DNA of 64,000 nt from Myxococcales bacterium. Lineage in GTDB: Bacteria; Myxococcota_A; Polyangia; Haliangiales; SHYZ01. Shown here piece after piece: positions 18,908 through 43,008 of this stretch (positions are counted from its first letter, which is position 1; each line of letters starts with the position of its first letter). The notes beneath the pieces were generated by a model, which did no database searches, was not told the DNA's origin, and worked only from the letters and a program-made list of their open reading frames with translations. The stretch lies in the NCBI GenBank assembly GCA_009692535.1, contig SHYZ01000003.1, positions 1,277-65,276 of the forward strand, given 5' to 3'. A program made the position numbers and the translations under genes.

Positions 18908-19930
18908 TCACGCACCGGCCGTGTCGCGCGCGAGCCCAGCGACCGCCGCGACCCACGCCGGCGTCGCGTTGAGCGACGGCACCAGCGTGAGCGACTCGCC
19001 GCCCTGCGCGAGGAAGTCGGCGCGCGCACGGATCGCGATCTCCTCGAGCGTCTCGAGACAGTCAGCGACGAACGCAGGGCAGAAGACCACCACGCGCCGC
19101 TTCCCCGCCGCGAGCAGCCGCGGCAAGTCCTCGTCGGTGAACGGACGGATCCAGGGCGTGCGCCCGAGCCGCGACTGGAACGCGACGCTCCACCCGTCCG
19201 CCGCCAGTCCGAGCCGTGCCGCGATCGCACGCGCGGTGCCGACACACTGCGCGCGGTAACAGCCACGTCCCGCCGCTGCCGCCGAGTCGCAGCAGTCCGG
19301 CGCGGTGAGACAGTGACTCGCTGTTGGATCGGCGCGACGGATCTGCCGCTCGGGCAGACCATGAAAGCTCATCAGCACGTGATCGGGCCGCTCACGCTCG
19401 AGCACCTCGGCACCGACTGCGGCGAACGCGTCGATGAAGCGGGGATCGTCGTGGAACGAGCCGGTGACCGAGATCGCCGGGACGACCTGGAGCCCCGAGG
19501 CCACGCGAAACGCCTCTTCCACCGACGAGCCGGTCGCCGCCGACGAGTACTGCGGGTAGAGCGGCAGCAGCACGATCCGCGACACGCCCGCCGCATGCAG
19601 CGCGACCAGCGCGGCGCCCAGCGACGGCGTGCCGTAGCGCATGCCGAGTTCAACCTTCCAGTCACTGCCGAGCTCCGTCTGCACCGCCGCCGCGAGCGCG
19701 CGTCCATGCACGAGCAGCGGCGAGCCTCCCGGCCCCCACACCTTGCGGTACGCCGCCGCGCTCTTCTTCGGGCGCGTCGGCAAGATCACGCACTCGAGCA
19801 GCAGCAGCCGAAGCGGCGCGGCAATGTCGATCACGCGCGGGTCAGAGAGGAACTCGCGCAGGTAGCGCCGCACCGCCGCGGTCTCGGGGGCGTCGGGGGT
19901 GCCAAGGTTCACCAGCAGCAGGCCGCGCAC
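18908..19930 (-). CDS. hemH: ferrochelatase
   Basis: LLVNLGTPDAP...VRRYLREFLSDPRVI N-terminus, LPLYPQYS and SFHGLP motifs. The GTG start is 2 nt downstream of the preceding gene's stop. Confidence 0.9.
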   Translation of the reverse strand: MRGLLLVNLGTPDAPETAAVRRYLREFLSDPRVIDIAAPLRLLLLECVILPTRPKKSAAAYRKVWGPGGSPLLVHGRALAAAVQTELGSDWKVELGMRYGTPSLGAALVALHAAGVSRIVLLPLYPQYSSAATGSSVEEAFRVASGLQVVPAISVTGSFHDDPRFIDAFAAVGAEVLERERPDHVLMSFHGLPERQIRRADPTASHCLTAPDCCDSAAAAGRGCYRAQCVGTARAIAARLGLAADGWSVAFQSRLGRTPWIRPFTDEDLPRLLAAGKRRVVVFCPAFVADCLETLEEIAIRARADFLAQGGESLTLVPSLNATPAWVAAVAGLARDTAGA

Positions 19931-19932
19931 GC

Positions 19933-22683
19933 CTAGCCTTCGTCGGGCGGCGGCACGAACGCGGGGACCGTGACCTCGATGGTGATCGGAATCTCGCCGG
20001 TCCCCTTCACCTCGTGCGGCGCACAGAAGGCGCGCAGATTGTCCCCCTCACGCTCGATGTACTGAAAGATCTGCTGCATCCCTTGGAGCTCGTTCGGCAT
20101 CGGGACCGCGCAGACCGTGTAACTCCCCGCCGGCAGGTTGCCCATGCGCGCCGCGCCGCCGCCGAAGGAGATCCCGAACGACGAGGTCGCCTCACCGAGC
20201 GCGGCGATCTCGGTCTCGAGCGCACGCGCGGTGGTCGCGGTGAGTAGTCCGCGCGCAGTACGCACCTGCGCCAGCTTCACCTCCCCCTCGGCGGCGTGCG
20301 GCGTCACCACCAGCGTCGCGGTCTCCGTCGGGATCGTGAGCGCGACCTTCGCCGTGCGCCCCTCCTCGAGGATGACGACCTGCGAGTGAAAGGCCATGCC
20401 GCCCATCGGATTTCTGCCGGTCATCGCTGACACGACGTAGGTGTCGGCGGCGAGCCGGTCGAAGCGGAACGCACCGTCGGGACCGGTCTGGATCATGAAG
20501 TTCGTCGTCGTCACCGTCTGCGCCGTCGCGTTGACCATGAGCTCCTCGACCGGCTGTCCGCCGCGCGTGACGGTCCCTTCGAGTGCGCCGAACGGCTTGA
20601 GCACGAGGTCGATCGTCGCCGGCTGCGTGCCACCCGCGACCTGCACCGCCTGCGAGCGACCGAGCGTCTCGTGATCCGCGAGCAGCGCGAGCTCGCGCGG
20701 CCCGACGCCGAACAGCGTGTAGACGCCCTCGTCGTCGGCAGTCGCGCTGCGGACCACGCCGCCACCGCCGGGACCGAAGCCGCGCGTGCTCGGGCGTGCG
20801 CCATCACCAAAGAGTCGTCGCCCCGCGAACACCGTCGCGCCAGCCGCAGGTGCGCCGGCCGCGGTGAGCACGCGCCCGGTGATGATGCGCCCCTTCTTCA
20901 CGGTGAGCGTCCCGACGTTGAGCGCCTTCCCCTCCTCGACGTCGACCTCGACGCGCTTCTGATCGAAGCTCGGCCCGGTGACCGTGAGGCTCCGCTTGCC
21001 GGGCGGCACGTTCTCCAGCTCAAACGTGCCGTCCTTCGCGGAGAACGGCGTGCCCTGCCCCATCCCGGCCGACGCCGTGTAGAGCTCAGGCGCGCTGCCG
21101 TCGGCGAAGAGCACGCGGCCGACCACCGAACCGTCCTCGGGCAGCACGATCTTCACGTTCTGATCGCCGACCTCGGCGTCGACCGGGTCCTGCTGCCAGT
21201 TGCGCCCCGGCGCGCCGGTGCGGCTCGCACGCAGTTGATAGTCCCCCTCGCGCAGGCCGCGCAGCACGAAGCGGCCGCCCGTGTCGGTCAGCTCCTGCGC
21301 GCGCCCACGCAGCCCCCACTCGCCACGCCCGCGCCGACTGAGCGCAGCGAGTCCACGCGCGTTCGGCCGCGCCGAGACCATCGCCTCGGGCACCGGCTCA
21401 CCGCGCGGATCGACGACGACGCCTGAGATCGTGCCGTCGAGATCGAGCTTGAGCTCGAGGTCCCGCCGATCGCCGGCGGTAAGATCCACGTCGACCGTTT
21501 CGCTCGTCGCGGTCTCGTGGATCGCGACCGCTTGCGCCTTCTTGCGCGGCACGCCGGTGAGCGAGAACGTGCCGTCCTCGCCGGCGACCGTCTGCCGGAT
21601 GTCGCCCTGTCCCTGCCCTTCGCCGGTGGGCGCGACCCGCACCGACGCCCACCCGACCGGCTCGCCCGCCTTCGACACCACGCGACCAGCGACGGTCGCG
21701 CCCTCTTCGAGACGAATCTCCACGCCGGTCTTGTCAGTGGTCCCATCGAGCGTCACCTGCGCCGACGAGCCGGGCGCGGAGCCCTCTCGCCGCGCAACGA
21801 ACCGAAACGTCCCGGCCGGCAGCGCCTCGAAGCGCCAAGCCCCGCGCGCGTCGCTAACCGCCGCATCACGACGCGAGTCGGCCTCGTTGCCCCACTCCGA
21901 CACGCCGGCAAAGAGCACCGACGCGCCTTCGATCGCCGTGCCGTCGACGGCGAGCACAGTGCCCGACACCGCTGCGCCGCGACGAAGCGAGATCGTCTCG
22001 CGCTCGAGTACCGGCTCAGCGCCCGACTGGCGCGCCACCGCGACGCCGGTAAACGTCTTGCCGTAGCCCGGCGCCCACGCCACCGCGGTCTGCCACCCTG
22101 ATGGCACCTGGGTGAGCAGCGCCTTGCCGTCCGCGCCGGTGGTCGCCGTGATCGTCTCGAGATCGCGCAGTTCGATCGTCGCGCCGTCGATCGGCGCGCG
22201 CGTGACGGCGTCGATGACCGTGACCTCGACCGACGCGCCGGGCCGCAGCCTGAGCGTGACCGGATCGCTCGTCGCCGTGAGCCGTGCGGTGACCGGACCG
22301 GCGATCCCCTGCGGCGCGCGCGCGACCAGCGTGTACGGCCGGCCGACCAGCTTGTCGACGAAGAAGCTGCCGTCATCGCCGCTCTCGACGGTGCGCGGTG
22401 GATTCGCGCTCACCGTGACGATCGCCCCCGCGACCGGCTGCTCTGCGGCGTCGAGCACGATCCCCTCGAGCCGAAGCGTCCCCTCGCGATCGTCGTCGAC
22501 GAGCACGCGTTGGTCTTCGCCGCCGCTGCGCCGGTCGCCACCCGACTCGGGCGCGCGACGGTCGGGTGCGCGTGGCGCCTCGACGGTGGCGGTCAGCTTG
22601 GGCGAGCTTGTGCGCTTGCGCAGGACGAGCCCGAGGCCCACGAGGGCGACGATTACGATGCCGATGACGACGCGACGCTTCAT
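19933..22683 (-). CDS. membrane-anchored protein with multiple carboxypeptidase-regulatory-like (Ig-fold) repeats
   Basis: N-terminal TM segment VVIGIVIVALVGLGLVL. About 9-10 reiterations of the pattern G.V.d..G.PvagA.V......t.tdadG.f.l..l..G.Y.l.a. Confidence 0.65.
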   Translation of the reverse strand: MKRRVVIGIVIVALVGLGLVLRKRTSSPKLTATVEAPRAPDRRAPESGGDRRSGGEDQRVLVDDDREGTLRLEGIVLDAAEQPVAGAIVTVSANPPRTVESGDDGSFFVDKLVGRPYTLVARAPQGIAGPVTARLTATSDPVTLRLRPGASVEVTVIDAVTRAPIDGATIELRDLETITATTGADGKALLTQVPSGWQTAVAWAPGYGKTFTGVAVARQSGAEPVLERETISLRRGAAVSGTVLAVDGTAIEGASVLFAGVSEWGNEADSRRDAAVSDARGAWRFEALPAGTFRFVARREGSAPGSSAQVTLDGTTDKTGVEIRLEEGATVAGRVVSKAGEPVGWASVRVAPTGEGQGQGDIRQTVAGEDGTFSLTGVPRKKAQAVAIHETATSETVDVDLTAGDRRDLELKLDLDGTISGVVVDPRGEPVPEAMVSARPNARGLAALSRRGRGEWGLRGRAQELTDTGGRFVLRGLREGDYQLRASRTGAPGRNWQQDPVDAEVGDQNVKIVLPEDGSVVGRVLFADGSAPELYTASAGMGQGTPFSAKDGTFELENVPPGKRSLTVTGPSFDQKRVEVDVEEGKALNVGTLTVKKGRIITGRVLTAAGAPAAGATVFAGRRLFGDGARPSTRGFGPGGGGVVRSATADDEGVYTLFGVGPRELALLADHETLGRSQAVQVAGGTQPATIDLVLKPFGALEGTVTRGGQPVEELMVNATAQTVTTTNFMIQTGPDGAFRFDRLAADTYVVSAMTGRNPMGGMAFHSQVVILEEGRTAKVALTIPTETATLVVTPHAAEGEVKLAQVRTARGLLTATTARALETEIAALGEATSSFGISFGGGAARMGNLPAGSYTVCAVPMPNELQGMQQIFQYIEREGDNLRAFCAPHEVKGTGEIPITIEVTVPAFVPPPDEG

Positions 22684-22821: not shown

Positions 22822-24099
22822 GTGCGCCCGCGCCTCCTTCTCGTGCTGCCGAAGACGAGTTACCGCGGCGACGCCTTCCTCGACGCGGCGCGCGCCGCCG
22901 GCGCCGACGTCTGTGTGGCGTCTGATCGCTGCCACCAGCTCGATGGGCACTACGAGTTCCCTGCCGGCTCGTTCGTGATCGACCTTCTCCACCCCGACGA
23001 AGCCGCCGCCGCCATCGCCCGCGACGCCCGCGAGCGCCCGGTCGTCGCTGTGCTCGGTGCCGGCGGCGAGGCCGCAGCGTACGTCGCGGCCCTCGCCTCG
23101 CGTCTGCTCGGGCTGCCGGCCAATCCGCCCGAGGCCGCGCTCGCCGCCGGTGACAAGCTGCTCCTCCGCACCCGCCTCGCCACAGCCAGCGTGTCCCAGC
23201 CACGCTTCGCCGTCGCGACGGAGCACGAGTCCTCCGCCGTCATCGCTGCGCGCGTCACCGCCGGCCCCGGCTTCCCCTGCGTCGTGAAGCCGCGCTTCCT
23301 CTCGGGCAGCCGCGGCGTGATGCGCGCCGACGACGAGGTCGAGCTCGCAGCGCGACTCGCACGGCTCTGGCGGCTGCTCGCAATCCCCGAGCTGCGCGCC
23401 CACGGCGGCGATGCGGCGCAGAGCGTCCTCGTCGAGGAATTCGTGCCGGGCGCCGAGGTCGCCTTCGAAGGGCTGCTCGATCACGGCGCGCTTCGTACCC
23501 TCGCACTGTTCGACAAGCCCGATCCGCTCGACGGGCCGTTCTTTGAGGAGTCGCTCTACATCACGCCGTCACGGCTCGCCGACGACGAACAGGCGCGCAT
23601 CGCGCACGTCGTGGCCGAGGCCGCGCACGCCCTCGGTCTCATCGACGGTCCCATCCACGCCGAGCTCCGCCTCGGCGCCAACGGCCCGGTCGTGCTCGAG
23701 GTCGCCGCACGATCGATCGGCGGCCTCTGCTCACGCGCGCTCCGCTTCGGCACCGGCCTCTCACTAGAAGAGCTCCTCGTCCGCCACGCCCTCGGGCACG
23801 ACATCGCCACCCACACACGCGAGCGCAGCGCCGCCGGCGCGATGATGCTGCCGATCCCCGCCGCTGGCGTGCTCGACGAGGTCACCGGCGTCGCCGCCGC
23901 GCTCGCGCTGCCCGGCATCGAAGACGTCGTGATCACGCTGCCGCTCGGTCACCGTGTCGTCCCGCTCCCCGAGGGCTCGAGCTACCTCGGCTTCGTCTTC
24001 GCGCGCGGCGAGACCCCTGCCGCCGTCGAGGCGAGCCTGCGCGCAGCACACCGCGCCCTCGGCTTCCGCATCACCCCGCGACTCGCGACCACAGACTGA
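22822..24099 (+). CDS. ATP-grasp domain protein (L-amino-acid-ligase-like)
   Basis: Typical ATP-grasp layout: DK..LR, PCVVKPRFLSGSRGV, LVEEFVPGAEVAFEG, GPIHAELRL. Substrate unknown. Confidence 0.7.
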   Translation: MRPRLLLVLPKTSYRGDAFLDAARAAGADVCVASDRCHQLDGHYEFPAGSFVIDLLHPDEAAAAIARDARERPVVAVLGAGGEAAAYVAALASRLLGLPANPPEAALAAGDKLLLRTRLATASVSQPRFAVATEHESSAVIAARVTAGPGFPCVVKPRFLSGSRGVMRADDEVELAARLARLWRLLAIPELRAHGGDAAQSVLVEEFVPGAEVAFEGLLDHGALRTLALFDKPDPLDGPFFEESLYITPSRLADDEQARIAHVVAEAAHALGLIDGPIHAELRLGANGPVVLEVAARSIGGLCSRALRFGTGLSLEELLVRHALGHDIATHTRERSAAGAMMLPIPAAGVLDEVTGVAAALALPGIEDVVITLPLGHRVVPLPEGSSYLGFVFARGETPAAVEASLRAAHRALGFRITPRLATTD

Positions 24100-24179: not shown

Positions 24180-25583
24180 CTATCGCTCTACGCTCCCCAA
24201 CTGGGAGCGCGTCGGTTCCGCTCAGCAGAACCACGGCTCGGTGAGGCGCGGCACGCGACGGCGTGGTCGCGGTGCGGCCTCAGCGGGGGCCGGCTCGCCC
24301 GCGAGGGCTGCAGCAAGCGCATGGATGCGCGCGAAGATCACCCCCGGCGCGAGTGCTGCGTCCGCGGTCTCCTCGACGAGCGCCGACACCCGCTGCTGCA
24401 GTACGTCCATGCGCGGATCCGGGTGCACCCACGAGTACGCGAGCGCCGCTTCGTCGAGCGGGCCGAGCAGCGGTGCCGTGTCGGCGTGATCGGCGAGCAG
24501 CGACCCGGGTGGCACCAGCAGCCGGATCGAGAGCTGCACGGGATCGACCTCCTCCTCCAGCTCCTCGTCGCGCACGAAGCGACAGAGCGCGAGAAAATCT
24601 TCGAGCGTCGAGAGCGGCGTGAACGGTACGAAGGTCGGCCGCACCGAGATGCCCGCTCCGCGCAGGAGCGCGATCGCCGTGTGCGCGTCGGCAGCGGTGT
24701 GCCCCTTGTCGAGCAGCGTGAGCACGCGCTCCGAGAGCGACTCAAACGCCGAGACCACGAAGAGACACCCGAGCGCACGAAGCTCAGCCAGGAGCGCGCG
24801 GTGCCGAAGCAGGTGCTCGACCTTGATCGTCGCGTCAAACGTCACCGTCGCGTCGAGCGCGTGCAGCCCGCGTGCGAGCGCGAGCGCGTGGCGCGGGCCG
24901 TTGAGAAAATCGGGGTCGGTAAAGCTGATGTGCCGCGCGCCCGCGTCGAGCTGCCGTTGCGCGTCGGCGAGCGCGACCTCGACCGGCACCGCGAAGAACC
25001 GCCCACCGTAGATCGGTGGCAGCGGACAGTGCCGGCACATGTGCAGGCAGCCGCGCGAGCCTTCGACGGCGCCAGCGACGACCAGTCGCTCGCCGTCGTC
25101 GAGCTTTACGTACGACGCGAGTGCCGCGAGTCCGTCCCGCACCGGCACGACGTAGCTCGGTCGACGTGTCGGTATGGCTGGCGCCGCCACGCTAGACCGC
25201 TCGCCACGCGCGAGCGCGACCAACTCGGCCTCGTACTCCGGCCCAAGCGCCACCGCGCCAAACGCGCGCGCCAGCCAATCGGCGTGGAGCGGCGCGTAGA
25301 GCCCGTAGAAGCAGACCGTCCGCTCGCCCCCGAGCGCGCGCACCCGCTCGGCCACACGTGCGCCGAGCCGGAGCGCGGTGTGCATCGGCGCCGAGATCGC
25401 GACCAGCCGCGCCCGCGTGAGCGCCGCCATGGCGGCCTCGCCGCCGAGCGACTCCTGACCCACGTCGAGCGTCGCCGGGGAAAATCCCGCAGCGGCGAGC
25501 GCCGCAAACGCCGACGCCAGCCCATGCGGCTGGCGCCCGAGTTCGTACGTCGAGACGAGGAGAATCTCCCCCGCGCCGGTCAC
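24180..25583 (-). CDS. B12-binding-domain radical SAM protein, probable selenoprotein with C-terminal C-U-A-E-P tail (UGA at 24224-24222 read as Sec)
   Basis: CxxxCxxC motif (GCLHMCRHC) and an N-terminal B12-binding-like domain (ILLVSTYELGRQPHGLA). The ORF track ends at TGA, but the same frame continues ...EPWFC-TGA-AEPTRSQLGSVER-TAG. A SECIS-like hairpin lies 12 nt after the UGA. GTG start at 25583 is 7 nt after the yggX stop. Confidence 0.7.
24190..24210 (-). promoter_or_regulatory. candidate bacterial SECIS hairpin
   Basis: mRNA sequence CGCUCCC-AGUUG-GGGAGCG forms a 7-bp perfect stem plus a flanking G-U pair. The apical loop contains GU. The stem begins 12-13 nt after the in-frame UGA. 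Confidence 0.5.
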
Positions 25584-25590
25584 CGCGCCG

Positions 25591-25866
25591 TCACTTCGTC
25601 GACGGTGGCCGGAAGTCGGGCGGGAGCTGGGCACCCTCGCCGAAGAAATACTTCTCCGCCTCCTCGAGCAGCAGCGCCTGGCCGCGTGGCGAGAAGAGGT
25701 CGACGCGGTACTCGTTCACGATCATCTTCGAGTGCTCGAGCCAGAGCTTCCACGCCTCCTGCGAGACGCTGTCGAAGATGCGCTGCCCGAGGTCGTTGTC
25801 GAACGGCTTGTACGAGACGCCAGGAAGCTCCTTGCCGATCTTTACGCAGTTCACCATGCGGGCCAT
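25591..25866 (-). CDS. yggX: YggX-family Fe(II)-trafficking / oxidative damage protection protein
   Basis: 91 aa. [16 protein letters not shown]...[36 protein letters not shown] aligns by eye with E. coli YggX (...[31 protein letters not shown]...). Confidence 0.8.
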
Positions 25867-25944
25867 GAAAACCTCCAGACGCGCACTATAGCCACAGTCG
25901 GTGAATTCTTGCCGGTGTCACTCCCGCCTCGTAAGCTCCGATCC

Positions 25945-26325
25945 ATGCAGAGCCGCACCGAGCGCAGGGGACGCAGAAGCACCGACGTCCTCGTCGCGCT
26001 CCGCTACCAGCTTGAGACCTGTCGTGAAGAGGCCGAACTTCTGGCGCTGGTGATCTCCGACGAGCACGGCATCTGTCTCGCGTCAGCGGGCGCTGCCGAC
26101 ACCTGCGAGGAGATGGCAGCCCGCCTGCCGATGCTCGCGCGCCGCGGCGAGCACACCAGCAACATGCCGCTCGGCTTCGAGGGGAGCGAGCTGCCGGTCG
26201 CGCTGCGCCGCTTCGAGCACGAGGGCTCTCCGCTCTACGTCTGCGCGGTAGGCGACGCTGCGGATCAAGCCGGCGTGCAGCTCGAGCGCTCGCTCCGCGG
26301 CGTGACGCGCATCCTCGCGGGCTAG
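25945..26325 (+). CDS. hypothetical protein (possibly Roadblock/LC7-like)
   Basis: ATG at 25945; 126 aa. The pattern LALVISDEHGICLASAG is reminiscent of roadblock/MglB-type folds. Weak call. Confidence 0.4.
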   Translation: MQSRTERRGRRSTDVLVALRYQLETCREEAELLALVISDEHGICLASAGAADTCEEMAARLPMLARRGEHTSNMPLGFEGSELPVALRRFEHEGSPLYVCAVGDAADQAGVQLERSLRGVTRILAG

Positions 26326-26346
26326 CGCCCGTAGGCGCACCTGGCG

Positions 26347-26652
26347 CTAGTGACGCGCGGCACCGCTCGCCAGCTCGGCGAGCCATGCGTCGACACGCGC
26401 GCCGGCGGTGAGCGACGACGAGAACTCGCCGTACGCCAGCTCAGGATGCGCGCGACGCGCCTCGTCGAGCGAGAGCGACGTGAGCTTCGGCTCGCCCTGC
26501 GCGTTCGGCTCTGCCACCAGCCAGTAGCTCCGCCCCTCGTCGAGACAGTTCTCCGGCGAATACGCGCGATGAAACTCATAGCTGCGCGCCCCTTCGATCC
26601 GGCGACACGCTGGCTGGGCGACCCAGCCGTTCGGCAGTTGATGACTCGACAT
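26347..26652 (-). CDS. hypothetical protein
   Basis: ATG at 26652 is preceded by GAGGAGGAA. 101 aa with no recognised domain. The longer 131-aa version starts at an ATG abutting its RBS-like sequence. Confidence 0.4.
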   Translation of the reverse strand: MSSHQLPNGWVAQPACRRIEGARSYEFHRAYSPENCLDEGRSYWLVAEPNAQGEPKLTSLSLDEARRAHPELAYGEFSSSLTAGARVDAWLAELASGAARH

Positions 26653-26754
26653 CGGTTCCTCCTCGGGCGCGCGAGCATACTCGAACATCCTCGGCTCCAC
26701 GCACGGCTCAGCCGCGCAGCACGTGCACGCTAGGGGTACCATCCTTGCCTGGCC

Positions 26755-41245: not shown

Positions 41246-41271
41246 CGGCCGCGTGCTAGCGTCCGCGCCCC

Positions 41272-43008
41272 ATGCTCGGCAAACGTGCGCGCCTCGCCTT
41301 CGCCTTCGCCTTCACCTTGCTCGCGTTCGCCGCCTGTGGCGCGCCGCCCGCGCCACAACTCCCCGCTCCTCCCGGCGACCCAATCGTGCTGCTCCACGGC
41401 GGGCGCATCTTCACCGGCGACGCCGCACGCCCGCGGGCCGAGGCGCTCGCTTTCGCCGGTGACGAGATTCTCGCCGTCGGCAGCGACGACGAGGTGCGGC
41501 GCGCACTCGGCGCCCGCGCAGCAGCAGCGCGCAGCATCGACCTTGCCGGACGCTGGGTGCTCCCCGGCTTCATCGACGCGCACGCGCACATCCTGGGCGG
41601 CGGCTTCGCGCTCGCCGGGCTCGACCTATCCGGACTCGAGACGCGCGCGGCGATCCTCGCCGCCGTCGTCGACTGGGCAGCACGGCACCCGGAGCGCGCG
41701 GCGATCACCGGGCGCGGCTGGAGCTACCAAGCGTTCGCGCCGGGGCTGCCGACCCGCGAAGAGCTCGATCGCGCCGTCCCGGATCGCCCGGTCTGGTTGC
41801 GCAGCTACGACGGCCACACCGGCTGGGCCAATGGGCGCGCGCTCGCCCTCGCCGGACTCGGCGACCGTGCGGCACCTGACGAGCCGCCCGGCGTGGTGCG
41901 CGATCCGAAGACCGGCCGACCGACCGGCGCGCTGCTCGAGGACGCGATGGGCCTCGTCGGCGCGGCGTTCCCACCGCCGAGCCTCGCCGAGCGCGAGGCA
42001 GCGCTCGTGCGTGCGTTCGCCCACGCAGCATCGCTCGGCGTGACCACGCTCTGCGAGGTCGGCGATGACCTTGGCGAGCTCGAGGTCTACGAGGCGCTCG
42101 ACGCACGCGGCGCGCACACGCTGCGGGTCGTGTATGGCCCGTCGATCGATGACGGCATCGCCGCGTACGCGCCGCACCACGCGCGCCTCGCCGCCCAACC
42201 GCGCCGGCGCGCGCGGCTGCTGCCCGGTCCGCTCAAGGGCTTCGTCGACGGGGTGATCGAGTCGAACACCGCCTTCCTGCTCGCGCCCTACGCCGACGGC
42301 AGCGGCGCCTCGCCCGCGCCGCACCTCGACTCCGCGCTGCTGCTCGCACAGCTCACCGAGGCCGACGCACTCGGTCTCGACGTCGCCTACCACGCGATCG
42401 GCGACGCCGCGGTGCGGTCGGTGCTCGATGCCGTCGCGGCCGCGCGCGCACAGGGCCTGCTGGTCGATCGCCGGCCGCGCATCGAGCACATCGAAGTGGT
42501 CGACGCGGCCGACCTGGCGCGCTTCGCTGCGCTCGGCGTCGCTGCGGTGATGATGCCGCGCCACGCCGAGCCGGGCGATGAGCCGGACGGCGGCGTCTGG
42601 TCGAACAAGGTCGGCCCGGCGCGTCTGCCGCTCACGTTCGCGTTCCGCTCGCTGCTCGACGCCGGCGCGCCGCTCGCGTTCTCGAGCGACTGGCCGGTCG
42701 TCGGCCTCGCCGCGCTGCCCGGCCTCGCGGTCGCCGCGACGCGGCAGGGCGCCGACGGCAAGCCGGCCGCCGGCTGGGTCCCCGGGCAGCGGATCTCCAT
42801 CGACGAAGCGATCACCGCCTACACCGCCGGCGCGGCGTGGGCGCTCCGGCTCGACGGCGTGACCGGCGTGCTCGGCCCCGGACTCGCAGCCGATCTCGTC
42901 GTGCTCGACGCGAGCGCCAAGCTCGAGCAGCCGGCGACGCTTCACACCGCCGACGTCGACCTCACGATCGCCGCCGGGCGCGTCGTGTACGAGCGCAGCG
43001 CGCCATAA
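41272..43008 (+). CDS. amidohydrolase-family (YtcJ-like) metal-dependent hydrolase lipoprotein
   Basis: Lipobox LLAFAACG. GFIDAHAHILGGG metal-binding HxH motif, plus a late HAIGD and a C-terminal SDWPV motif. Confidence 0.8.
   Translation: MLGKRARLAFAFAFTLLAFAACGAPPAPQLPAPPGDPIVLLHGGRIFTGDAARPRAEALAFAGDEILAVGSDDEVRRALGARAAAARSIDLAGRWVLPGFIDAHAHILGGGFALAGLDLSGLETRAAILAAVVDWAARHPERAAITGRGWSYQAFAPGLPTREELDRAVPDRPVWLRSYDGHTGWANGRALALAGLGDRAAPDEPPGVVRDPKTGRPTGALLEDAMGLVGAAFPPPSLAEREAALVRAFAHAASLGVTTLCEVGDDLGELEVYEALDARGAHTLRVVYGPSIDDGIAAYAPHHARLAAQPRRRARLLPGPLKGFVDGVIESNTAFLLAPYADGSGASPAPHLDSALLLAQLTEADALGLDVAYHAIGDAAVRSVLDAVAAARAQGLLVDRRPRIEHIEVVDAADLARFAALGVAAVMMPRHAEPGDEPDGGVWSNKVGPARLPLTFAFRSLLDAGAPLAFSSDWPVVGLAALPGLAVAATRQGADGKPAAGWVPGQRISIDEAITAYTAGAAWALRLDGVTGVLGPGLAADLVVLDASAKLEQPATLHTADVDLTIAAGRVVYERSAP

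What the first reader, a model, noticed from the sequence alone, without database searches (positions are those of the whole stretch)
24180..25866. Radical SAM enzyme with in-frame UGA giving a Cys-Sec-Ala-Glu-Pro tail and a SECIS-like hairpin, coupled to yggX
The ORF track ends the 470-aa minus-strand ORF at TGA (24224-24222). The same frame continues ...LTEPWF-C-[UGA]-A-E-P-TRSQLGSVER and only then reaches TAG (24182-24180). Twelve nt after the UGA the mRNA can form a perfect GC-rich hairpin, CGCUCCC-AGUUG-GGGAGCG (24209-24191). It has GU in the apical loop and sits where bacterial SECIS elements are found. The protein has a B12-binding-like N-domain and a CLHMCRHC (Cx3Cx2C) radical SAM cluster motif. 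From memory, NCBI annotation has a curated family named 'CUAEP/CCAEP-tail radical SAM (seleno)protein'; I cannot verify this here and know of no assigned function. A YggX-type Fe(II)-trafficking gene ends 7 nt upstream of the radical SAM start. This suggests a two-gene unit that links iron/Fe-S protection to a redox-active Cys-Sec tail. Standard ORF callers would truncate this protein and miss the Sec.
Basis: partly seen in the sequence, partly recalled or inferred. Interest (0 to 1): 0.8.

Follow-up and report, generated by a model that had tools for sequence, protein, structure and literature searches.

The report
Selenocysteine-tailed radical SAM enzyme gene
This gene encodes a radical SAM enzyme whose apparent stop codon is read as selenocysteine. 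It belongs to a protein family that is already catalogued but has no known function, and it sits in a conserved gene group that suggests what to test.

Summary
The minus-strand gene reads ...LTEPWFC-UGA-AEPTRSQLGSVER-UAG, and a perfect 7-bp hairpin with a GU loop starts 12 nt after the UGA.

The protein scores 585.6 bits (cut-off 500) against NCBIfam NF040546, 'CUAEP/CCAEP-tail radical SAM (seleno)protein'.

- **UGA column.** In 80 species-level loci, 57 have UGA and 23 have UGC/UGU. The downstream peptide [AST]EP(T/S)..Q is conserved after the UGA.
- **Hairpin.** It is present in 54/57 Sec forms and 5/23 Cys forms, and it shows compensatory changes.
- **Codon choice.** GU is in the loop in 57/57 Sec forms against 8/23 Cys forms. 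Leu after Gln is always UUR in Sec forms and always CUN in Cys forms.

Together these show a real SECIS.

yggX lies directly upstream in 31/80 loci. A NifU-type gene takes its place in 20/80, and the two never occur together.

The closest characterised relative is ArsL, whose Cys-rich tail holds arsenite while SAM's aminocarboxypropyl group is attached. An analogous 'tail holds the acceptor atom' mechanism is my best guess and is unproven.

This is a new member of a known, uncharacterised selenoprotein family.

The parts
24180..25583 (-). Full-length radical SAM selenoprotein gene: GTG start, in-frame UGA, TAG stop. 467 codons including Sec454.
   Evidence: sequence and translation. NF040546 at 585.6 bits against a cut-off of 500, with the profile (positions 1-467 of 468) aligned across the UGA. 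PF04055.
25026..25049 (-). CLHMCRHC, the CX3CX2C motif (Cys179/183/186) that ligates the radical SAM [4Fe-4S] cluster.
   Evidence: sequence. These columns are invariant in 31- and 86-sequence alignments.
24222..24227 (-). UGC-UGA, the Cys453-Sec454 dipeptide of the tail.
   Evidence: The UGA column is TGA in 57 of 80 orthologous loci and TGC/TGT in 23.
24183..24221 (-). Coding sequence after the UGA: AEPTRSQLGSVER.
   Evidence: Cys-form homologues continue with CCA[EQA]PT[RK]xQLxx. Sec-form loci continue with [AST]EP(T/S)..Q in the same frame.
24191..24209 (-). SECIS hairpin CGCUCCC-AGUUG-GGGAGCG, 12 nt after the UGA, with GU in the apical loop.
   Evidence: minimum-free-energy fold from the UGA; 84% of cells paired, 70 double changes against 23 in shuffles, 0/500 shuffles as high; 54/57 Sec against 5/23 Cys forms have at least 5 bp; GU in the loop in 57/57 against 8/23; background 3/1158.
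24214..24232 (-). Possible second helix, GGUUCUGC-UGA-GCGGAACC, with the UGA as its triloop. Role unknown.
   Evidence: part of the minimum-free-energy fold; fully pairable in 49/58 Sec forms against 11/23 Cys forms. This is confounded with conservation of the WFC-U-AEP peptide.
25591..25866 (-). yggX (Fe(II)-trafficking / oxidative-damage protection protein). Its stop codon lies 7 nt before the radical SAM start.
   Evidence: NF003817 at 112.8 bits against a cut-off of 74. PF04362; directly upstream on the same strand in 31/80 loci.
22822..24099 (+). L-amino-acid-ligase-type ATP-grasp gene, convergent with the radical SAM gene. The two stop codons are 80 nt apart.
   Evidence: PF13535, PF18603 (LAL_C2) and PF18130; weak matches to DdaF and BacD; no equivalog cut-off reached; present within 6 kb in 37/80 loci, at 47-60% identity across phyla.

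Best explanation
**Shown.** The gene is a selenocysteine-containing member of the curated but functionally uncharacterised family NF040546 (CUAEP/CCAEP-tail radical SAM (seleno)protein). UGA 24224-24222 is recoded as Sec. The signal is a SECIS hairpin 12 nt downstream that lies inside the conserved tail codons (T-R-S-Q-L-G-S-V). The product is a 467-residue protein that ends ...WF-C-U-AEPTRSQLGSVER. It has an N-terminal Rossmann (B12-binding-like) domain, a CX3CX2C radical SAM core, and a roughly 65-residue linker and helix that carries the Cys-Sec pair.

The gene is part of a module that recurs across at least seven phyla. The module holds an iron or Fe-S helper (YggX here; a NifU-type protein elsewhere; never both), the radical SAM enzyme, an L-amino-acid-ligase ATP-grasp enzyme, and in some lineages DUF169.

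**Inferred, about 35-40% likely.** The family is the sister of ArsL. ArsL is the only CX3CX2C radical SAM enzyme known to cleave the Cgamma-S bond of SAM. Its C-terminal Cys motif holds As(III) while the 3-amino-3-carboxypropyl group is attached. I propose the Cys-Sec pair works the same way, as a swinging arm. It would hold a soft acceptor atom (a chalcogen or metalloid carried as an S-X-Se adduct) at the SAM/[4Fe-4S] site. A SAM-derived carbon fragment would be joined to that atom. The resulting amino acid would then be a substrate of the neighbouring ligase. YggX or Nfu would keep the oxygen-labile cluster loaded in these largely aerobic hosts.
For: **Family and reading frame**
- NF040546 scores 585.6 bits against a cut-off of 500, and the alignment runs across the UGA.
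- The UGA column is UGA in 57/80 loci and UGY in 23/80. The peptide after it is conserved.

**SECIS**
- Covariation: 84% of cells paired, 70 double-change cells against 23 in shuffles (0/500 as high), and much lower values when the partners are slid.
- Sec against Cys contrast: hairpin in 54/57 against 5/23; GU loop in 57/57 against 8/23; Leu codon UUR 37/37 against CUN 12/12.
- T. roseum keeps a GU-loop hairpin although its peptide differs.

**Module**
- yggX in 31/80 loci, Nfu in 20/80 and mutually exclusive with yggX, ligase in 37/80, DUF169 in 15/80.
- Co-directional operons rSAM-nfu-(DUF169)-ligase occur in Rokubacteria, Acidobacteriota and Planctomycetota.

**Link to ArsL**
- NF040542 gives 235 bits (E 1.6e-69). 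The next radical SAM families give 33 bits or less.
- Identity to RCCLKC-tail proteins is 33-34% over 84-86% of the length.
- ArsL chemistry and the role of its tail are described.

**Structure**
- The AlphaFold model of a Cys-form homologue has pLDDT 93.7. The tail is placed with confidence (pLDDT 82-91) after a lower-confidence linker.
- The architecture resembles AprD4, OxsB and TsrM.
Against: - Sec insertion is inferred from comparative genomics only. No tRNA-Sec, selA, selB or selD lies in the window, and the rest of the genome is not available.
- On the chemistry, the protein fails the ArsL cut-off (235 bits against 450). Its tail has two chalcogen ligands, not the three that bind As(III) in ArsL.
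- No ars genes are among the conserved neighbours.
- The ArsL HMM alignment stops at residue 405, so the two tails are not demonstrably homologous.
- The ligase is absent within 6 kb in about half of the loci that have full flanks. In the window it is convergent, not co-transcribed.
- Sec in 71% of species suits a catalytic redox or nucleophile role at least as well as simple ligand binding.
Confidence: 0.6

Rival explanations
1. Redox-shuttle tail. The Cys-Sec pair cycles between selenolate/thiolate and a selenenylsulfide, like the GCUG tail of thioredoxin reductase or the C-terminal Cys pair of class I ribonucleotide reductase. It would carry reducing equivalents into the active site of an otherwise canonical (5'-deoxyadenosyl radical) enzyme that acts on an unknown substrate.
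For: - Sec is preferred over Cys in 57/80 species. This is typical of catalytic redox residues (established knowledge of selenoproteins).
- A vicinal Cys-Sec on a C-terminal arm after a lower-confidence linker matches the architecture of thioredoxin reductase (for the model; established knowledge for the enzyme).
- Only two chalcogen residues are present, against three in ArsL.
- There are no metalloid genes in the neighbourhood.
Against: - No thioredoxin, glutaredoxin or reductase gene is a conserved neighbour.
- The closest characterised relative uses its Cys tail to bind substrate, not for redox, and does not make the 5'-deoxyadenosyl radical.
- This reading gives no role to the conserved amino-acid ligase.
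Confidence: 0.3
2. The tail binds a heavy metal. The Cys-Sec pair would capture a soft metal ion such as Hg(II) and hand it to the active site, as the C-terminal Cys-Cys of MerA does. The enzyme would then form or break a metal-carbon bond. This is the organometallic theme that Haft proposed for CU motifs.
For: - Haft's preprint lists this family among the rare CU-motif selenoproteins, together with HgcA and MerT, and argues that such motifs contact heavy-metal atoms.
- DUF169, a neighbour in 15/80 loci, is drawn next to hgcA-like and merR genes in Nitrospina.
- ArsL is a precedent for metalloid-carbon bond formation in the sister family.
Against: - No mer, ars or metal-efflux genes are conserved nearby.
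- The family is highly conserved (47-58% identity) across soil and aquatic phyla. That looks like core metabolism rather than an accessory resistance trait.
- The DUF169 link rests on a single figure legend.
Confidence: 0.12
3. The UGA is a true stop. The protein ends at Cys453 (Cys470 of the longest ORF), and the downstream frame and hairpin are coincidental or act as a terminator.
For: - Gene callers and RefSeq stop there.
- No Sec machinery is visible in the window.
- A hairpin-only covariance model does not single the site out.
Against: - Fifty-seven independent species keep UGA at exactly the Cys column, followed by a conserved in-frame [AST]EP(T/S)..Q.
- The hairpin covaries and is specific to UGA forms.
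- Codon choice (CAG-UUR) is biased only in UGA forms, even at 71% G+C.
- No run of U follows the hairpin.
Confidence: 0.03

Closest known systems
NCBIfam NF040546, CUAEP/CCAEP-tail radical SAM (seleno)protein. Mentioned once in Haft's 2022 preprint (bioRxiv 10.1101/2022.07.06.499078) as uncharacterised.
   Same: - Full-length match above the curated cut-off.
- CX3CX2C core.
- WFC-U-AEP tail.
- Sec and Cys alternate at the same column.
   Different: Nothing distinguishes it from the family; it is a member.

Not found in the papers I could search:
- the SECIS analysis;
- the alternation of YggX and Nfu;
- the ligase and DUF169 neighbours.
ArsL (NF040542, RCCLKC-tail radical SAM protein), the arsinothricin C-As bond-forming enzyme.
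   Same: - Sister family: 235 bits, E 1.6e-69; 33-34% identity over about 85% of the length.
- Same N-terminal Rossmann domain plus radical SAM core.
- A vicinal Cys-Cys/Sec near the C-terminus.
- In ArsL the tail binds the acceptor atom.
   Different: - Below the ArsL cut-off of 450 bits.
- C-U-AEP instead of RCCLKC, so two ligands rather than three.
- A linker about 45 residues longer, and a further 13 residues after the pair.
- Uses selenocysteine.
- No arsM, arsQ, arsR or ACR3 gene context.
- The chemistry is untested.
Bacterial SECIS elements (fdhF type).
   Same: - A hairpin inside the coding sequence that starts 12 nt after the UGA.
- G-U in the apical loop.
- Stem conserved by covariation. 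The spacing and loop rule are from my knowledge of the E. coli fdhF element and the bSECISearch criteria.
   Different: - No bulged U is evident.
- The stem is short (5-7 bp).
- No Rfam family matches.
- The loop is built from the invariant Gln-Leu/Phe/Val codons of the tail.
Thioredoxin reductase GCUG tail and MerA C-terminal Cys-Cys.
   Same: A vicinal Cys-Sec (or Cys-Cys) pair on a C-terminal arm that visits the active site. This is an analogy from established knowledge.
   Different: - Unrelated folds and cofactors.
- No homology.
- Here the pair lies 13 residues from the end, in a segment that AlphaFold places with confidence.
Class B radical SAM enzymes with an N-terminal Rossmann domain (AprD4, OxsB, TsrM).
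   Same: - Best structural matches: Foldseek E 1e-15 to 1e-17, TM-score about 0.6.
- PF02310 is recorded on many homologues.
   Different: - Sequence identity is only 13-19%.
- Cobalamin binding is untested. AprD4 itself carries no cobalamin (my knowledge).
- PF02310 is not detected on the window protein at E <= 0.01.

Membership tests
NF040546 CUAEP/CCAEP-tail radical SAM (seleno)protein | Whole-protein HMM score at or above the curated cut-off (500 bits). | tested here: met
   585.6 bits, E 6.6e-176, profile positions 1-467 of 468. U was entered as C.
NF040546 CUAEP/CCAEP-tail radical SAM (seleno)protein | C-terminal C-[U/C]-A-E-P motif. | tested here: met
   WFC-UGA-AEP at 24233-24213. The same column is U or C in 80 loci.
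Radical SAM superfamily (PF04055) | CX3CX2C cluster motif and a Pfam match. | tested here: met
   CLHMCRHC at 25049-25026. PF04055 at E 1.4e-11, 45.3 bits against a cut-off of 29.5. These Cys are invariant in the alignments.
Bacterial selenoprotein | In-frame UGA aligned with Cys in homologues, with conserved coding sequence downstream. | tested here: met
   23/80 loci have UGC/UGU and 57/80 have UGA. [AST]EP follows in 58/58 UGA forms, the window included.
Bacterial selenoprotein | SECIS hairpin at the right distance, with G/U in the apical loop. | tested here: met
   The stem starts 12 nt after the UGA and the loop is AGUUG. Covariation is shown. The hairpin is specific to Sec forms, Fisher p about 1e-10.
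Bacterial selenoprotein | selA, selB, selC (tRNA-Sec) and selD in the same genome. | not testable with these tools
   Only 64 kb is available. There is no tRNA-Sec and no SelA/SelB/SelD domain in the window ORFs.
Bacterial selenoprotein | Selenium physically present in the protein. | not testable with these tools
   Needs 75Se labelling or mass spectrometry.
ArsL (NF040542) | HMM score at or above 450 bits. | tested here: not met
   235.1 bits.
ArsL (NF040542) | RCCLKC tail with three As-binding cysteines. | tested here: not met
   The tail is FC-U-AEPT, with no third Cys. The ArsL tail is seen in B. cereus and described.
ArsL (NF040542) | Arsenic-resistance or arsM gene context. | tested here: not met
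   No ars genes are among the conserved neighbours of 80 loci or in the window. Compare the B. cereus island.
ArsL (NF040542) | Reductive Cgamma-S cleavage of SAM, giving methylthioadenosine and an aminocarboxypropyl radical. | not testable with these tools
   Needs a biochemical assay.
YggX (NF003817 / PF04362) | HMM score above the cut-off. | tested here: met
   112.8 bits against 74; PF04362 at 112.3 bits against 27.
L-amino acid ligase (ATP-grasp) | ATP-grasp_4 core plus the LAL_C2 domain. | tested here: met
   PF13535 at 98 bits, PF18603 at 64.3 bits, PF18130 at 27.6 bits. No NCBIfam equivalog cut-off is reached, so the substrate is unknown.
Cobalamin-dependent (class B) radical SAM | N-terminal B12-binding Rossmann domain that binds cobalamin. 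| tested here: inconclusive
   The fold is present and PF02310 is recorded on homologues. It is not detected on the window protein. Cofactor binding cannot be tested here.

The most novel reading that the evidence does not exclude
The NF040546 family would be a second clade of ArsL-type 'non-canonical' CX3CX2C radical SAM enzymes. It would use a Cys-Sec arm to present a chalcogen or metalloid atom and would build a carbon-heteroatom bond with SAM's 3-amino-3-carboxypropyl group. The product would be an undescribed amino acid, which the co-conserved L-amino-acid ligase would convert into a dipeptide. The pathway is widespread in soil and aquatic phyla and depends on a dedicated Fe/Fe-S helper (YggX or Nfu).
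Probability: 0.25. Interest if true: 0.8.

Novelty: new member of a known kind. Interest (0 to 1): 0.45.

Why it matters
The gene is a clean example of a selenoprotein that gene callers cut short. Even the RefSeq entry of a cultured organism stops at the UGA.

The family is large: at least 580 loci among species-representative genomes. It is well conserved across at least seven phyla and prefers Sec in about 70% of species, yet it has no assigned function.

Three links make the function testable:
- the sister relationship to ArsL;
- the mutually exclusive Fe-S helpers (YggX or Nfu);
- the co-conserved amino-acid ligase.

The first experiment is simple: does the enzyme make methylthioadenosine or 5'-deoxyadenosine, and what sits on the Cys-Sec arm?

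If the ArsL-like reading holds, aminocarboxypropyl-radical chemistry would extend well beyond arsenic, and selenocysteine would gain a new role in radical SAM enzymology.

Tried and rejected
- **Rfam.** No family matched the window at gathering thresholds. Only chance-level matches appeared around the UGA.
- **Hairpin-only covariance model.** The model was built from 56 other loci. It gave the window hairpin 9.3 bits, E 5.6, and the best hit in the window was an unrelated site. I dropped it as a detector; it shows that the stem sequence is not conserved, only the pairing.
- **Fold of the isolated 81-nt stretch.** I judged this not relevant to decoding, because the upstream arm lies inside the ribosome when the UGA is in the A site.
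- **Sec machinery.** No tRNA-Sec and no SelA/SelB/SelD domains in the window. The nearest copy is a 7.4-kb metagenome contig.
- **Literature on T. roseum.** The search for its Sec trait gave nothing useful.
- **Solved structures.** No close relative and no ArsL structure in the PDB.
- **ORF 25732-26325 (+).** Its 'conservation' in 10 loci is the antisense shadow of yggX. It has no Pfam match.
- **ATP-grasp gene near ArsL.** The B. cereus gene is only generically similar to the window ligase (26% identity, E 1e-17). I do not count it as a shared partner.
- **Lineage-specific neighbours.** AtuA-like, enoyl-CoA hydratase-like, HAD and PLP decarboxylase genes each occur in 5 loci or fewer. I set them aside.
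- **Auxiliary-cluster reading of the tail.** Besides the CX3CX2C triad, only Cys453 is invariant. The window lacks the nearly invariant Cys12. ArsL without its tail keeps its Fe/S content.
Full report
**1. The observation**

On the minus strand, the ORF listing ends a 470-aa ORF at TGA 24224-24222. The raw sequence and its translation show that the same frame continues ...LTEPWF-C-[UGA]-A-E-P-T-R-S-Q-L-G-S-V-E-R and stops at TAG 24182-24180.

The stretch CGCUCCC-AGUUG-GGGAGCG occupies 24209-24191 and begins 12 nt after the UGA. The cluster motif CLHMCRHC is at 25049-25026.

The upstream gene (25591-25866) matches YggX: NF003817 at 112.8 bits against a cut-off of 74, and PF04362. Its TGA stop lies 7 nt before the GTG at 25583-25581. 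The radical SAM family profile begins just after that GTG, so I take this GTG as the start rather than the GTG at 25634 that overlaps yggX.

**2. Is the hairpin more than chance?**

Taken alone, only moderately.
- Three of 1158 TGA triplets in the window are followed at 9-16 nt by a perfect 7-bp hairpin with GU in the loop.
- The minimum-free-energy fold of the isolated 81 nt prefers a different pairing.
- No Rfam family matches.
- A covariance model of the hairpin alone, built from 56 other loci, gives the window site only 9.3 bits, E 5.6.

The weight of the evidence comes from comparison with other loci.

**3. Family**

With U entered as C, the protein scores 585.6 bits (cut-off 500) against NCBIfam NF040546, 'CUAEP/CCAEP-tail radical SAM (seleno)protein'. 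The alignment runs through the UGA to profile position 467 of 468.

The only text on the family that I could find is one sentence in Haft's 2022 preprint. It calls the family uncharacterised and lists it among the rare CU-motif selenoproteins.

**4. Comparative test of recoding**

A protein search returned thousands of relatives. Among the best 120, about 20 end at ...WFC. The rest continue WFCCA[EQA]PT[RK]xQLxx.

A scan of one genome per species found at least 580 encoding loci. I fetched the best 80. They come from Myxococcota, Chloroflexota, Methylomirabilota/Rokubacteria, Gemmatimonadota, Acidobacteriota, Planctomycetota, Nitrospirota, Poribacteria and others.

At the second Cys column, 57 loci have TGA and 23 have TGC/TGT. 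After every TGA the frame continues [AST]EP(T/S)..Q.

Folding from the UGA gives the same hairpin in nearly all UGA forms, with different stem sequences. Examples are GAGGGUC/GACCCUC, GCGGACC/GGUCCGC, AAGAACC/GGUUCU and, in the window, CGCUCCC/GGGAGCG.

On the ungapped 57-sequence alignment:
- 84% of cells pair.
- 70 cells carry changes on both sides, against 23 expected.
- 0 of 500 shuffles reach this.
- All slid registers are far lower.

The Cys forms act as a natural control:

| Feature | Sec forms | Cys forms |
|---|---|---|
| At least 5 contiguous pairs | 54/57 | 5/23 (Fisher p about 1e-10) |
| GU in the loop | 57/57 | 8/23 |
| Leu codon after Gln | UUG/UUA 37/37 | CUN 12/12 |

The Gln codon is CAG in every Sec form that has a Gln at that position. 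The Leu bias holds even in genomes, like this one, with 71% G+C.

Thermomicrobium roseum keeps a GU-loop hairpin (GGACCC-GUC-GGGUCC) although its peptide there is different.

I conclude that this is a real SECIS and that UGA 24224-24222 encodes Sec. What remains untested is the Sec machinery. No tRNA-Sec or SelA/SelB/SelD domain lies in the window, and the rest of the genome is out of reach. The only near-identical sequence on record is a 7.4-kb metagenome contig with the same gene order.

**5. Surroundings**

tblastn and an unbiased clustering of all ORFs in the 80 loci show a larger module.

| Partner gene | Loci (of 80) | Position |
|---|---|---|
| yggX | 31 | Directly upstream, same strand |
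| NifU C-terminal-domain gene (PF01106, 93 aa) | 20 | Never together with yggX |
| ATP-grasp ligase | 37, plus the window (22822-24099, +) | Within 6 kb |
| DUF169 gene (PF02596) | 15 | Within 6 kb |

The ligase has the domain set of L-amino-acid ligases (PF13535, PF18603 LAL_C2, PF18130). It is 47-60% identical across phyla, about as conserved as the radical SAM enzyme itself.

Two arrangements recur:
- yggX>rSAM> <ligase, in Myxococcota and Chloroflexota. This is the window's arrangement.
- rSAM>nfu>(DUF169>)ligase> as one co-directional block, in Rokubacteria, Acidobacteriota and Planctomycetota.

Sixty of the 80 loci have at least one partner. No ars, mer, thioredoxin or transporter gene is conserved nearby.

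**6. What it most likely does**

The second-best family match is ArsL (NF040542, RCCLKC-tail) at 235 bits, E 1.6e-69. Every other radical SAM family scores 33 bits or less. RCCLKC-tail proteins on plasmids are 33-34% identical over about 85% of the length. The two tail-bearing families are therefore sisters.

ArsL is characterised.
- It cleaves the Cgamma-S bond of SAM and releases methylthioadenosine.
- It forms an Fe-bound 3-amino-3-carboxypropyl species.
- It joins that group to As(III) held by the three C-terminal cysteines.
- Removing the tail abolishes product formation but not SAM cleavage.

By analogy, I propose the Cys-Sec pair is a swinging arm. It would hold the acceptor atom at the SAM/cluster site. 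The product would be an amino acid, and the neighbouring ligase would then use it. YggX or Nfu would keep the oxygen-labile cluster loaded in these mostly aerobic lineages.

An AlphaFold model of a Cys-form homologue is confident (pLDDT 93.7, pTM 0.92). It places the tail with pLDDT 82-91 after a lower-confidence linker. The overall architecture resembles AprD4, OxsB and TsrM. No ArsL structure is available.

*Shown:* family membership, recoding signals, the gene module, and the sister relationship to ArsL.

*Inferred:* the chemistry, the nature of the acceptor atom, and the roles of the ligase and the Fe-S helpers.

I rate the ArsL-like mechanism at about 35-40% and a thioredoxin-reductase-like redox tail at about 30%. 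A heavy-metal hand-off gets about 12%; it is Haft's theme, and DUF169 is drawn near hgcA-like genes in Nitrospina. A true stop at the UGA gets about 3%.

Points against the ArsL analogy:
- The tail has two chalcogen ligands, not three.
- There is no arsenic gene context.
- The tails themselves are not aligned by the HMM.
- Sec predominates, which suits a catalytic redox or nucleophile role.

**7. Novelty and score**

The family, its Sec/Cys alternation and its name are already curated, so the finding is a new member of a known kind. A specialist would not be surprised by the UGA.

I did not find the following in the searchable literature:
- the SECIS analysis with its Cys-form control;
- the mutually exclusive YggX and Nfu partners;
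- the co-conserved amino-acid ligase and DUF169;
- the explicit link to ArsL chemistry.

Together these turn an orphan selenoprotein family into a testable problem. Interest 0.45.

Noticed in passing
L066 5972-5977 (Planctomycetota MAG contig JADFKK010000402.1): There is a tandem TGA TGA where every other locus has TGY-TGA, giving WF-U-U-AEPTEGQ with the usual hairpin downstream. It is either a Sec-Sec dipeptide or an error in a single MAG contig.
   Followed up: partly
window 24214-24232 (-): The codons WFC-U-AEP form an 8-bp helix, GGUUCUGC/GCGGAACC, with the UGA as its 3-nt loop. It is fully pairable in 49/58 Sec forms against 11/23 Cys forms. Glu after Ala is invariant in Sec forms (58/58) but present in only 16/23 Cys forms. 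Whether this is an RNA constraint or a protein constraint is unresolved.
   Followed up: partly
L081 6941-8377 (Thermomicrobium roseum DSM 5159 megaplasmid NC_011961.1): The RefSeq CDS WP_012643191.1 carries the selenoprotein family name but ends at the in-frame TGA. The frame continues AEPLEDPSGPV..., and a GU-loop hairpin follows. This is a cultured organism in which Sec insertion could be tested.
   Followed up: partly
window 42247-42328 (-): ARAGORN calls an 82-nt tRNA-Gly(gcc) here. The site lies inside an Amidohydro_3 ORF on the other strand (41260-43008; Pfam E 2e-88) and has no Rfam tRNA match. It is probably a false positive.
   Followed up: partly
L082 441-1664 and 4998-6272 (Bacillus cereus pAH820_272): The ArsL-type RCCLKC-tail gene sits in an arsenic island (ArsR, MIP channel, GNAT, ACR3, ArsC) that also holds an ATP-grasp gene three genes away. 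That gene is only generically similar to the window ligase (26% identity, E 1e-17).
   Followed up: partly
L070 5290-6654 and three other Planctomycetota loci: A PLP-dependent Orn/DAP/Arg-type decarboxylase lies about 1.7 kb downstream on the same strand as the radical SAM and DUF169 genes. It is lineage-specific, but it fits the idea of an amino-acid product.
   Followed up: no
L034 5423-5944 (Thermosporothrix hazakensis ATCC BAA-1881): Two tandem yggX copies precede the Sec-form radical SAM gene.
   Followed up: no
window 18908-20047 (-): A ferrochelatase gene (hemH) lies about 4 kb from the module. A homologue is also near the module in the Haliangiales locus L054, but not elsewhere.
   Followed up: no
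window 25886-26742: The stretch between yggX and the PAP2 gene holds only ORFs without any Pfam match. The apparent conservation of ORF 25732-26325 (+) in other loci is the antisense shadow of yggX. No sigma-70-like promoter was found upstream of yggX.
   Followed up: partly
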